64,000 nucleotides of DNA from Eledone cirrhosa. Taxonomy: Eukaryota. Under the pieces are notes generated by a model. It worked only from the letters and a program-made list of their open reading frames with translations. It was not told the origin of the DNA and did no database searches. Made by a program: the position numbers and the translations under genes. Within the stretch, counting starts at the first letter, position 1; each line of letters starts with the position of its first letter. This document shows positions 34,068-51,960 of the stretch, one piece after another. The stretch lies in NCBI GenBank assembly GCA_964016885.1, contig OZ024742.1, positions 118,792,001-118,856,000 on the forward strand. The letters run 5' to 3'.

Positions 34068-34520
34068 ATATATGGATGTATATATAATGTATTTTGCAAT
34101 ACACTTTATGCTTAATTAAAAGCATTTTGAAGACCGTAAGCTATTGTTTTTTAGAGTAGTGACAAATTCACTTACTTTGATCTCAGCAAACAGGGGAGAT
34201 AAGCCGACAAGGCCTTGTTTCGCTTTTGTTGAAGCTTATCAAGGCTAACTACTCCCACCTGTCTACCGAGATCACTGATGTTATATTCTTATAGAATTCT
34301 AGTAAATAATCAGGAGCTGATTATGCAGAGCGGTTGTTGGTCAGGCAGAAATTAAAAATTAGAATTGGAGCTCTGAAATAGCAATATATCTCCCCTGTTT
34401 GCTGAGATCAAAGTAAGTGAATTTGTCACTACTCTAAAAAACAATAGCTTACGGTCTTCAAAATGCTTTTAATTAAGCATAAAGTGTATTGTAAAATACA
34501 TTATATATACATCCATATAT
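34068..34520 (-). mobile_element. non-coding fold-back element (about 134-bp inverted arms) with HHR in the spacer; probable PLE terminus
   Basis: 34068-34201 is the reverse complement of 34387-34520. Confidence 0.8.
34202..34246 (-). ncRNA. type I hammerhead ribozyme, U3-A8 core variant
   Basis: Minus strand: AGCC-UUGAUAA-GCUU(caacaa)AAGC-GAA-ACAAGGCCUUGU-C-GGCU. Confidence 0.85.
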
Positions 34521-34544
34521 ATATTGCTGTATTGCATATATATA

Positions 34545-36775
34545 TTGCGTGCTATTGTTCTCCACGCCTGAGCGTGGAGAACAATAGCACGCAAAGACAA
34601 AACCACGTAAATGGTATAGCAGAAGTCGTAGACTAAAATTCTAACTAGGAGACCGAATGAATCTCCGCTACAGAGTTAAGAGCAAAGTAAATAAATACAA
34701 TACAGAAGTAATAGAAATAAATAAATACATACATGCAAACAAATACGTACATACACAAGCATACGCAGAACACTTACCATCGGTATACAAAACCACGCAC
34801 ATATAAATATGTGTGTGTGTATGCGTGTATACAAATAAATAAATAATTATATAAACGTAAATAAATAAATAAATACGTATATAACAAGCGCACACACATA
34901 CCTACATGTAAATACACGAATGTTCGGAGACGTAAGTCAACTAAAACAAGAAGTACACATATACACACACCCAACATACGTACGAACCTGCATACTCACA
35001 CAGACGCAAAACTCCCGTATACACATAGCCAAACCATATGTACCAGAATATATAAAATTATACGCCATAACATAAACAATCAAATATACGTACGAGAAGG
35101 TATACGTACCTTCACAAAACATACGGGTAATATATACTTACCTATGCAAATAAGTAATGGTATAAACAAAACATACTTAGCTCCCACATCAAGACGTAAA
35201 ATATCCACGTATAAATCGTACTATCCGTTAGGGTATAACGTGGGGCTGTAATACAGGAAAGTTTTGTGCAATTTATGTTTACAAGCCGAAATTGCCTCAG
35301 ATTTTTTGTTTAAGATGTGGTCTGTGGCGTAGAGTATTTCCAGGGCCTCAGTGGCGCAGAGGTCACATGGTCTTTTATTTCCGTTATACGATCTAGCCCT
35401 AGCTAGGATCTCCCAGTGTAACTTATATTGGGTGTGGTTGTCTTTTAGACTCCAGATATAAGCTGAAAGTGACGTCATATTCCTTCTTAGAGGGTAACGA
35501 AAAGAATGGATATGCATGTAAAGACGCTGCTTGAATCTATTGGCGGTTAACCCTATGTAGGCCCTACGGGGCGTGGGTGTTACAACCTTACATTTGTAGA
35601 CAATGTTACTAGAGAGGTATTTCCCGGATAGGGGGCAATCAACCCGATTCCTACAATTACAGTTAGTACTAACTACAGGGTTGCACGTGTTCCTACGGCT
35701 AGGTAGTTTAGCTAAATTAGAAGCTGTGATGTTATGTGCAAAGTTAGGAGTCGTAGAGTAAGAAATTTTAATAGTATTTCTATTAAAAATGTTACTATAC
35801 TTATGTGTAGGGGGAAAATGCTTCGTAATAAGGGAAAGAAAGATCTTAGCTAATGGTGTGGCCACCTCCATATTATATGATGGGTTATACCAACAAATGC
35901 GACGGGATCTATTTCTTCTAGGTCTATTTTCGTACTCTGTATATGCTACCTTATCGACAAATCCACTTCGAGCAAGAGCTTCATTGTAATAAGTGGAATG
36001 GTCGTTGAAAATACGCTCGTGGGTGGAAAAGCGGGAAAGCCTCAACGAAACGTTTCTTACCAGGTTCTTGGTTATGCTGGCAGGATGGTTGGAATGCTTA
36101 CTTATGGAATTAAGCGTATCATTCAGCTTTCTATACGGGTAATACAACCCGTTCATTAAATTGAGGGTAACGTCGAGGTAATTAACGACCGAGAGATTGG
36201 CCTCAACCTGTATAGAGAGGTTGAAGCCTTTAAAGAAGGCTGTGAGTTCTTTTCTGAATCTGTCGCAAGCACGAGGTCCGCACTTAGTCATGGTCAAAAG
36301 ACCATCGTCACGGTACAAACCACCGCCCGCGTTGGGGAATTCGTCCTTGATAGAGAAAAGAAGGAAAAGGCCGATAAGATCAGTAACCTCCGCAGAATCT
36401 TTGCGTGTTATTGTTCTCCACGATCCACATATGACGTATTATCTTCCTTTTTTTCGTTCATTGCCAGAGAACGTCTCTATGAACCACCTAAGAGAAAATT
36501 AGTCTACGACCACTTTTATACCATAAACGTTTTCTGTCTTTGCGCGTAATTGTTTTTCACCGCTCCTATTAATGACGTATTATATTCGTTTTTTCCCGTT
36601 CTTTGCCAGCGAACGTTTCCACGAAACAAAGTATCGTCTTCCTGTCTTCCTCCGGTTGCAACGTTTTTTGAAATATCCACTTCTGCGTTTACAGATTGAC
36701 TTTGTTAGTTTCAGAAGATCCCGTTAAGGGTGAAAGCAGCGATTCTTTGCTTAAACTTTAATCTGTTATTTTAAT
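34545..36775 (-). mobile_element. Penelope-like element 1, 5'-truncated, with inverted 3'-derived segment at 36398-36775
   Basis: RT-thumb-GIY-YIG ORF; the ttgcgtgctattgttctccacg motif of its 3' end recurs in opposite orientation at about 36400; (TA)n flanks. Confidence 0.88.
35221..36399 (-). CDS. PLE RT (motif B' onward) plus GIY-YIG endonuclease, truncated
   Basis: DSAEVTDLIGLFLL..GGGLYRDDGL, NYLDVTL, SNHP, WYNPSY, CNCRNRVDCPL, IVYKC..YIG.T.NRFKQR..H, CDLCATE, LNKKSE..CKH. Confidence 0.9.
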   Translation of the reverse strand, partial: DSAEVTDLIGLFLLFSIKDEFPNAGGGLYRDDGLLTMTKCGPRACDRFRKELTAFFKGFNLSIQVEANLSVVNYLDVTLNLMNGLYYPYRKLNDTLNSISKHSNHPASITKNLVRNVSLRLSRFSTHERIFNDHSTYYNEALARSGFVDKVAYTEYENRPRRNRSRRICWYNPSYNMEVATPLAKIFLSLITKHFPPTHKYSNIFNRNTIKISYSTTPNFAHNITASNLAKLPSRRNTCNPVVSTNCNCRNRVDCPLSGKYLSSNIVYKCKVVTPTPRRAYIGLTANRFKQRLYMHIHSFRYPLRRNMTSLSAYIWSLKDNHTQYKLHWEILARARSYNGNKRPCDLCATEALEILYATDHILNKKSEAISACKHKLHKTFLYYSPTLYPNG

Positions 36776-36820
36776 ATATATATATATATATATATATATA
36801 TATATATATATATATATATA

Positions 36821-51015: not shown

Positions 51016-51597
51016 TATATTATATTTATTATATTTTATTGTTTTATTTTTTTATTTTTCTTAATTTATAGATACATTTATATTAGGCAGTCTGCTCAGA
51101 CAATTGAATACTGACCCCTCCCCCCCCCCCTCCCACCTAATTTCTGTATCTTGATCTTGAAATGTGTGTGCCAGTGTTTTATGTGAGTGACTTAATTTCT
51201 ATGTGCTTATGATTTTATATCCACATATATAAATGTGAGTGGGGGAGTGTGTGTGTTTGTATGTTCGTGGTTATGTGTATATTTATGCATATACGCGCAT
51301 GTATGTGTGATTATACTGATATGTGTGAGTATGAAAAAATATATTTATATGCTTGACTCCATAAGTATCAATGCGCATCTTATCAGCGCATTAAGCTTAC
51401 AGAGATATTAACCTTGAAATTTTGTGTTTGCATCCATCTTTTTAGTATGCGTATACAAATTATACACACATTTTTGTAAAATATGTGTAAGGATTTTACA
51501 TGTATATACACACACCGAACTGCTTTTAACCCTTTGTGTTTTCATTGGTCAATTTTGAACTGATATTTTGAATTGTTGTTATTATCAATAAATATAC

Positions 51598-51752
51598 TTC
51601 ATTATTTCTGAAGACGGCGTATATATGTGTTAGGTATGTATATTTAATCTTGATAATTTGTATAATTTTGTATAATTTTGTACATAGATCTGTTGAATAT
51701 GCATACCAATTATAACACATATATACCCTAGAAACGATCGTTAAATAATGAA
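51598..51752 (+). ncRNA. type I hammerhead ribozyme with >100-nt stem II
   Basis: TTCATTATTT/AAATAATGAA stem I; CTGAAGA at 51608; gtatatatgtgtta/taacacatatatac and ggtatgtatatttaa/ttgaatatgcatacc helices; GAAA at 51731; palindromic ACGATCGT; GTT triplet. Confidence 0.82.
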
Positions 51753-51960
51753 CTTTTTTTGTTTAATATAAGGAATTGTTTATTCATTATTTGTTTAATA
51801 TTTTATATATATATATATATACATATACATATATATATATATATATATATACATATACATATATATATATATATACATATATATATATATATATATATAT
51901 ATACATATATATATATATATATATATATATATATATATATATATATATATATATATATAT

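What the first reader, a model, noticed from the sequence alone, without database searches (positions are those of the whole stretch)
34068..51960. Cluster of distinct PLEs sharing one architecture: (TA)n target, 5' truncation, inverted copy of own 3' end, terminal HHR
Seen: four adjacent elements (34.1-34.5, 34.5-36.8, 37.7-41.9, 42.7-51.8 kb), all abutting TA-rich tracts, with inverted segments from about 130 bp to 4.3 kb. The three coding ones are clearly divergent proteins with CxCx5CPL before and CxxC..CxH after the GIY-YIG; two retain GGLYRDD. Inference: this is a TA-targeting C-terminal-EN PLE lineage (possibly the Hydra clade) in which integration regularly primes two cDNAs in opposite directions, producing genome-wide fold-back DNA and microsatellite hot spots.
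Basis: partly seen in the sequence, partly recalled or inferred. Interest (0 to 1): 0.75.

Follow-up and report, generated by a model that had tools for sequence, protein, structure and literature searches.

The report
Hydra-clade Penelope elements, reciprocal twin ends
These are copies of a known group of jumping genes that land in TA repeats, plus one small non-coding hitch-hiker; their back-to-back insertions almost always have one long and one short end, which likely means both cut DNA strands start copying at two different fixed points of the element's RNA.

Summary
E2, E3 and E4 are truncated copies of three Hydra-clade Penelope-like families in an octopod genome. They carry the motifs of Craig 2021, which already lists an octopus Hydra element, (TA)n targets, hammerheads and inverted copies. 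E1 is not a coding PLE but a 319-nt retrozyme-like unit. E2's inverted piece is the family's 3' end, which its body lacks.

In genome copies, 190 of 203 3' ends abut (TA)n (background 8%), and about half to nine-tenths of insertions are inverted. Each family has two fixed ends, S and L, 27-135 nt apart. In 63 of 69 head-to-head insertions one arm ends at S and the other at L. In 16 of 50 such pairs the short arm holds a tail absent from the long arm, excluding simple fold-back there. A bulged hairpin sits 4-8 nt behind S and L in all three coding families. Likely mechanism: twin target-primed reverse transcription from two fixed RNA sites. One-sided tails and two start sites are published; strict reciprocity and the hairpin were not found in my searches. 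The scan noted both before, on other DNA of this genome.

The parts
34063..34528 (-). E1, family A: non-coding 319-nt hammerhead unit (34063-34384, short end at the left TA-rich tract) with inverted 3' arm 34387-34528 whose outer end is disturbed at the E2 junction
34185..34258 (-). Family A type I hammerhead, core TTGATAA (U3-A8 pair in place of C3-G8), GUC site, palindromic stem III
   Evidence: core in 59 of 66 matches
34545..34594 (.). 23-bp perfect hairpin at the broken 3' end of E2's body
34570..36399 (-). E2 body, family B: 5'-truncated RT thumb/linker/GIY-YIG ORF (35221-36399) and part of the 3' UTR; lacks the terminal about 440 nt
36398..36781 (+). E2 opposite arm: terminal 382 nt of family B, short (S) end running into (TA)24; hammerhead 36707-36757 with core CAGAAGA (U4A)
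   Evidence: core in 79 of 86 matches
37699..38275 (-). E3 inverted arm, family C, short (S) end at the (TA)44 tract 37611-37698; canonical hammerhead 37745-37805
38289..41866 (+). E3 sense arm, family C: 5'-truncated ORF broken by a frameshift near 38668 (38294-40242), 3' UTR, hammerhead 41679-41716, 100-nt tail, long (L) end into the TA tract 41866-42721
41773..41794 (+). Bulged hairpin GCTC..TT GAGC about 7 nt behind the S site of family C
   Evidence: sequence
42721..47179 (-). E4 inverted arm, family D, long (L) end with 135-nt tail (about 42721-42855) holding the bulged hairpin 42771-42851; mirror hammerhead 42910-43064
47177..51806 (+). E4 sense arm, family D: linker/GIY-YIG ORF remnant 47177-47983, 3.8-kb microsatellite-like 3' UTR that belongs to the element, short (S) end into the TA tract 51804-51960
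51598..51752 (+). Family D type I hammerhead with canonical core CTGAAGA, an about 115-nt extended stem II and a 10-bp stem I; not found by the Rfam scan
   Evidence: sequence; fold z = -7.1; core in 52 of 52 matches; absent

Best explanation
Three Hydra-clade Penelope-like retrotransposon families and one non-coding hammerhead unit have inserted into (TA)n, and their head-to-head insertions likely arise by twin priming, in which both nicked target strands would prime reverse transcription on sense RNA, one at fixed site S and the other at fixed site L. Shown here: the two fixed ends, their TA flanks, their reciprocal use within one insertion, 0-5 nt overlaps at most resolved head-to-head joints, and a bulged hairpin just behind each end in families B, C and D. 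Inferred: the GIY-YIG domain nicks both strands of (TA)n; the two cDNAs stop at variable points and are joined by microhomology repair; the hairpins position two RT active sites, probably of a dimer; and family A is moved in trans by a PLE enzyme not identified here.
For: Hydra motifs in full-length ORFs of 709, 896 and 813 aa against the clade description and the Hydra proteins in the supplement. 190 of 203 terminal 3' ends abut (TA)n versus 8.0% background. Reciprocal S/L ends in 63 of 69 pairs (A 12/15, B 24/27, C 8/8, D 19/19; p = 2e-13 against one half). In 16 of 50 reciprocal B/C/D pairs the shorter arm has the tail and the longer arm has no tail copy, so the short arm cannot be a fold-back copy of the long one; the long arm is L in 31 and S in 19. 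The hairpin motif occurs exactly twice per 3.2-6.6-kb unit, 4-8 nt behind S and L, is intact in 60 of 66 distinct tail copies, and has a background rate of 0.065 per kb. In vitro, Poseidon_Ac nicks and extends both strands, starts at two sites that bound the tail, and is predicted to dimerise (PMC11167929). Head-to-head joints also appear in short-read contigs.
Against: PMC11167929 saw no difference in start site between top and bottom strand in vitro, and its element is Poseidon, not Hydra. 6 of 69 pairs are not reciprocal by the automatic caller (three look like miscalls but were kept as misses). E2 and L178 end at internal positions. 7 of 53 pairs have both 5' ends within 30 nt (D 3/18, p = 0.02; B 4/27, p = 0.054; C 0/8), which also fits hairpin self-priming. 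Family A shows reciprocity without the hairpin motif, so the motif is not required for the pattern. Copies were the top-scoring hits of each search, not a random draw. No biochemical step was tested.
Confidence: 0.65

Rival explanations
1. One cDNA is primed, folds back on itself (or an antisense RNA self-primes, as proposed in PMC3846280), and the endonuclease resolves the hairpin at the other site, leaving the tail on one side.
For: Junction palindromes are published. 7 of 53 pairs have nearly coincident 5' ends. Arms are more alike than unrelated copies in B (2.2% vs 3.2%, 14 pairs) and D (14 of 16 pairs as close as the nearest other copy). It would give reciprocity automatically.
Against: In 16 of 50 reciprocal pairs, including E4, the short arm carries tail sequence that the long arm lacks; in L057, L027 and L024 the short arm is tail only. 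The antisense-template version is not excluded by this test.
Confidence: 0.17
2. The ends are set on a DNA intermediate: a tandem or circular cDNA is cut by the element's own endonuclease at two AT-rich sites flanking the tail, and is then joined to (TA)n.
For: Craig 2021 ascribes the tail to EN-mediated resolution of the intermediate. Tandem arrays up to 38.8 kb exist in family D. S and L lie in AT-rich sequence.
Against: In vitro RT start sites coincide with genomic tail ends in Poseidon_Ac. The motif behind each end is a covarying stem (G-C to A-U in family D) with variable loops, which reads better as RNA structure.
Confidence: 0.13
3. The long palindromes are assembly artefacts (fold-back reads) or later rearrangements unrelated to integration.
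For: E4's arms are 99.6% identical over 4.3 kb in low-complexity DNA. E2's junction with E1 does look secondarily rearranged.
Against: The inversions stop at element ends and do not extend into flanks. The arms end at different fixed sites, and 18 other family D insertions repeat the layout. Short-read contigs show such joints.
Confidence: 0.03

Closest known systems
Hydra clade of C-terminal-EN PLEs, including Hydra-1_Obim of Octopus bimaculoides (Craig et al. 2021, PMC8557442)
   Same: RW(K/R), DKT, CxCx5C linker, CxxC/CxH, no CCHH, hammerhead near the 3' end, (TA)n target, inverted 5'-truncated copy (noted there for Penelope-13_HM).
   Different: Longer units (3.2, 4.8, 6.6 kb versus generally <3 kb); tails of 88-135 nt versus 30-40 nt; N/S/T-rich inserts between thumb and linker in C and D; a microsatellite-like 3.9-kb 3' UTR in D; hammerhead variants (U4A in B, very long stem II in D).
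Poseidon_Ac in vitro system (Frangieh et al. 2024, PMC11167929)
   Same: Two RT start sites bounding the tail, AT-rich target, both strands extended, hammerhead upstream of the start sites.
   Different: Different clade; start sites 111-118 nt inside the ORF there, upstream of the ATG here; no strand difference reported there, whereas genomic insertions here pair S with L.
Metazoan non-LTR retrozymes (Cervera and de la Pena 2020, PMC7229834; Li et al. bioRxiv 10.64898/2026.07.22.740005)
   Same: Family A: 319-nt non-coding unit, type I hammerhead, monomers and tandem arrays.
   Different: Family A shows the PLE footprint (TA target, inverted arm, 27-nt one-sided tail) and a U3-A8 core; circular RNA not tested.
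L1 twin priming (recalled from memory, not read here)
   Same: Two target strands prime two cDNAs that meet head to head; E2's layout, with a 28-nt overlap, resembles it.
   Different: In L1 the second primer starts internally at variable sites and the segments do not overlap; here both arms usually start at fixed 3' sites and duplicate the 3' region.

Membership tests
Hydra-clade PLE (families B, C, D) | Single ORF, RT with C-terminal GIY-YIG EN | tested here: met
   ORFs of 709, 896, 813 aa in genome copies; weak Pfam GIY-YIG hits for C and D, none for B
Hydra-clade PLE (families B, C, D) | RWK-type motif, DKG changed to DKT | tested here: met
   RWR and DKT in all three; RW[KR] and DK[TS] each in 118 of 120 homologues
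Hydra-clade PLE (families B, C, D) | N-terminal GxKF/Y not conserved | tested here: met
   No GxK[FY] match in the three ORFs; a degenerate (F/Y)xF(K/N)T lies at that place
Hydra-clade PLE (families B, C, D) | CxCX5C linker; CCHH absent; CxxC and CxH around the E and N residues | tested here: met
   the ENs separate from CCHH-type ENs of the same genome with 99/100 support
Hydra-clade PLE (families B, C, D) | Canonical hammerhead near the 3' end | tested here: met
   C canonical; D canonical core with long stem II; B has U4A in 79 of 86 matches, so not strictly canonical; cleavage untested
Hydra-clade PLE (families B, C, D) | Insertion into (TA)n | tested here: met
   B 88/91, C 27/28, D 44/45 ends versus 8.0% background
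Hydra-clade PLE (families B, C, D) | Generally short (<3 kb) | tested here: not met
   Units 3,243, 4,807 and 6,638 nt; a tendency in the paper, not a diagnostic
Hydra-clade PLE (families B, C, D) | RT phylogeny places it with named Hydra elements | not tested
   The named reference sequences were compared by eye only; the tree uses EN domains and unnamed homologues
Neptune / Nematis / Penelope-Poseidon / Naiad | CCHH motif with two cysteines between GIY and YIG; DKG or DKA | tested here: not met
   Only the single IVYxC cysteine in B and C, DKT in all; such ENs exist elsewhere in the genome
Non-LTR retrozyme (family A) | Small (170-400 nt) non-coding unit with type I hammerhead in tandem repeats | tested here: met
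   319-nt unit, arrays of up to about six units
Non-LTR retrozyme (family A) | Self-cleavage and accumulation as circular RNA | not testable with these tools
   needs RNA data or an assay

The most novel reading that the evidence does not exclude
A Hydra PLE enzyme dimer docks on two copies of a conserved bulged RNA hairpin, so that each subunit starts cDNA a few bases ahead of one hairpin on one nicked strand of (TA)n. This would explain in one step the PLE tail, its presence on exactly one arm, and the head-to-head inverted repeats, and would give a telomerase-related RT an RNA-structure-defined template start.
Probability: 0.4. Interest if true: 0.72.

Novelty: new member of a known kind. 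Interest (0 to 1): 0.45.

Why it matters
How PLEs make tails and inverted repeats is named as open in PMC8557442 and PMC11167929. The strict S/L pairing, the tail-in-short-arm cases and the paired hairpin turn it into direct tests. Family D offers a young intact ORF for them: many copies are 100% identical over the 268 aa queried. For genome work, these families are abundant, and family D spreads several kb of microsatellite-like DNA and multi-kb palindromes that repeat annotation would file as simple repeats. The elements as a class are known.

Tried and rejected
Rfam scan: only weak HH9 hits for A and C; the many miRNA hits are simple-repeat noise. My first hammerhead pattern found nothing because of an offset error and was replaced. 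PDB sequence search with the family B ORF: no match. PF26215 is not in the held Pfam. Sequencing-run search: no RNA holder listed, so nothing is said about expression. Homodimer prediction of the family D N-terminal 475 aa: no verdict. Arm-versus-copy divergence cannot separate one RNA from two RNAs of one locus or from later conversion; family A showed no difference (11 pairs, p = 0.41) and C had only 4 usable pairs. Depths were not used as copy numbers. The idea that family A is driven by B, C or D found no support: its tail length differs and it lacks the hairpin motif. A literature search for natural U3-A8 hammerheads found nothing relevant; that this pair can stay active is recalled, and PMC11167929 shows only the C3G/G8C rescue. 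The four-element cluster as a special hot spot was rejected as unremarkable given the background density.

Full report
What is there. The window lies at G000:C3:118792001-118856000 of a 3.0-Gb genome. A UNC-93-like exon in the window is 86% identical to an Octopus vulgaris protein, so the host is likely an octopod. Self-comparison gives inverted pairs at 34046-34201/34387-34542, 37706-38300/41175-41767 and 42856-47179/47495-51806 (4,326 nt, 99.6%), but none of that size for E2. Genome searches with each element returned 103, 40, 109, 82 and 138 scored matches; these are lower bounds. Units cut from single tandem copies define four families: A 319 nt, B 3,243 nt, C 4,807 nt and D 6,638 nt. maps the window on them.

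Identity of the coding families. Full ORFs are 709 (B), 896 (C) and 813 aa (D), 41-47% identical in the RT region. All have RWR, DKT, YRDD, CxCx5C, CxxC and CxH, and no GxKF/Y or CCHH, matching the Hydra diagnosis (PMC8557442 section 11). By eye they follow Hydra-1_Obim, Hydra-2_Amil and Hydra-1_Crog motif by motif. The 120 listed homologues share these motifs (116-120 of 120 each). An EN tree of 33 rows (3 window, 21 homologues, 9 CCHH-type ENs from this genome) separates the window elements from the CCHH type with 99/100 support; it holds no named reference. The paper's supplement already lists an octopus Hydra element, (TA)n preference for 26 of 27 families, hammerheads, and an inverted 5'-truncated copy.

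Family A. It has no ORF and occurs as monomers, tandems and inverted arrays of near-identical units. Its hammerhead core reads TTGATAA in 59 of 66 matches. It fits the description of non-LTR retrozymes, which a 2026 preprint derives from PLEs.

Hammerheads. All four families have one. C is canonical, B has CAGAAGA in 79 of 86 matches, and D has a canonical core with a stem II of about 115 nt that Rfam missed. Activity is untested. In Poseidon_Ac the ribozyme was not needed for insertion in vitro.

Target and inversion. By a strict rule (12 alternating T/A, one mismatch, starting within 6 nt), 190 of 203 terminal 3' ends abut (TA)n: A 31/39, B 88/91, C 27/28, D 44/45. The background is 8.0% of positions in 20 grid-chosen 10-kb stretches of the five largest contigs, range 0-30%. 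No query contained TA flank. Inverted arms, counted by eye from the maps: D 19 of 21 sites (L160/L161 counted once); C 10 of 20 with a 3'-end arm, plus 2 with internal pieces; B 17 of 23 resolved among 28 distinct loci, about 0.6 after allowing for inverted insertions being sampled twice; A about 14 of 21 independent sites. These are top-scoring copies, not a random draw.

Two fixed ends used reciprocally. Each family ends either at a short site S or at a long site L, 27 (A), 88 (B), 100 (C) or 135 nt (D) further on; the interval is the PLE tail. Among 70 head-to-head pairs found automatically, one duplicate (L052) was dropped, and 63 of 69 pair S with L (A 12/15, B 24/27, C 8/8, D 19/19; p = 2e-13). 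Three of the six misses (L038, L068, L070) look like anchor miscalls and were kept as misses; L160/L161 were not captured. E3 and E4 are reciprocal; E1's outer end and E2's L arm are disturbed at their shared junction. That the tail is often on one end only is published, as are two RT start sites bounding it, without strand difference in vitro.

Fold-back test. In 53 B/C/D pairs (the 38.8-kb array skipped), 50 are reciprocal; the longer arm is L in 31 and S in 19. In 16 the short arm bears the tail while the long arm has no tail copy, which a fold-back of the long cDNA cannot make. Most resolved joints overlap by 0-5 nt. Against this, 7 of 53 pairs have 5' ends within 30 nt, a mild excess that fits either one broken RNA read twice or self-priming. 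Arms are closer to each other than to other copies in B and D, but not in A.

Paired hairpin. I had noted a GCTC motif behind both ends (note); the reading as a bulged hairpin came from earlier scan notes and I tested it. RCTC-stem-YY-GAGY occurs exactly twice per unit in B, C and D, 4-7 nt after S and 5-8 nt after my L mark, with 0.7-0.9 hits per shuffled unit anywhere. The closing pair changes from G-C to A-U in D. The first hairpin is intact in 36/40, 12/14 and 12/12 distinct tail copies. The same motif is visible 3' of the hammerhead in the published coral consensus Hydra-2_Amil. Family A lacks it, so it is not needed for reciprocity, and A's driver is unidentified.

Family D's UTR. The 3.9-kb 3' UTR, with 21 TA runs of 10 nt or more in the unit, is 93-97% identical in 8 copies tested, so E4's large simple-repeat palindrome is element-borne. 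Whether such runs attract further insertions was not tested.

Artefact check. Inversions stop at element ends and recur across contigs, and contigs of public short-read runs show body-to-3'-end joints of the same kind.

Literature seen. PMC8557442: abstract, sections 3, 6, 11, 12, 15, supplement parts 1, 2, 8, 52 and a search in it. PMC11167929: parts 1-2 of 4. PMC3846280: passages and Discussion. PMC7229834 and PMC13282606: passages. bioRxiv 10.64898/2026.07.22.740005: part 1 of 5 (supplements closed). Searches showed no paper stating strict S/L reciprocity, twin priming for PLEs, or the hairpin. Older subscription papers on the tail are outside the library.

Verdict. New members of a known clade with the known architecture. 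The added value is a quantitative rule and a candidate RNA signal that make the PLE integration mechanism testable. Interest 0.45.

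Noticed in passing
window 60042-60666 and 60688-60839: Near-perfect fold-back of 297-nt arms with an 8-nt spacer, followed by a diverged partial third copy; not related to families A-D by the searches run.
   Followed up: no
window 54109-54155 (+): Another type I hammerhead-like motif with a canonical core, upstream of an imperfect palindrome 54248-54682 made of two copies of a common short repeat.
   Followed up: no
window 2376-4601 (+): Large exon of a UNC-93-like/MFS gene, 86% identical to an Octopus vulgaris protein over residues 430-720.
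   Followed up: partly
window 19937-21577 (+) and 22551-25424 (-): Two LINE remnants: an RT with a PHD finger, and an APE-RT element.
   Followed up: no
window 19613-19912, 26652-26951, 51959-52258: tRNA-derived SINE-like family; the copy at 51959 starts directly after E4's TA tract.
   Followed up: no
G000:C2:36.29-36.33 Mb (L228, L215, L214, L213, L154): One family D insertion of 38.8 kb: tandem units on both arms joined head to head, with S at one end and L at the other.
   Followed up: partly
L181 about 8075-8200; flanks of L178 and L005: A tiny fold-back element with the 3' half of a hammerhead, next to TA tracts; in L178 it flanks both arms of a family C copy that end at the same internal position.
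   Followed up: no
ORFs of families C and D (L181, L154): Long N/S/T-rich inserts between RT thumb and linker, recalling the N-rich inserts of Adineta Penelope elements (PMC3846280).
   Followed up: no
L229-L258: The same genome holds Neptune-like (CxxxxCxxC plus CCHH) and one Poseidon-like GIY-YIG element, mostly decayed.
   Followed up: partly
5' UTRs of B, C and D: The second hairpin closes on a shared GTTGAGC 28-30 nt before the start codon in all three families.
   Followed up: partly
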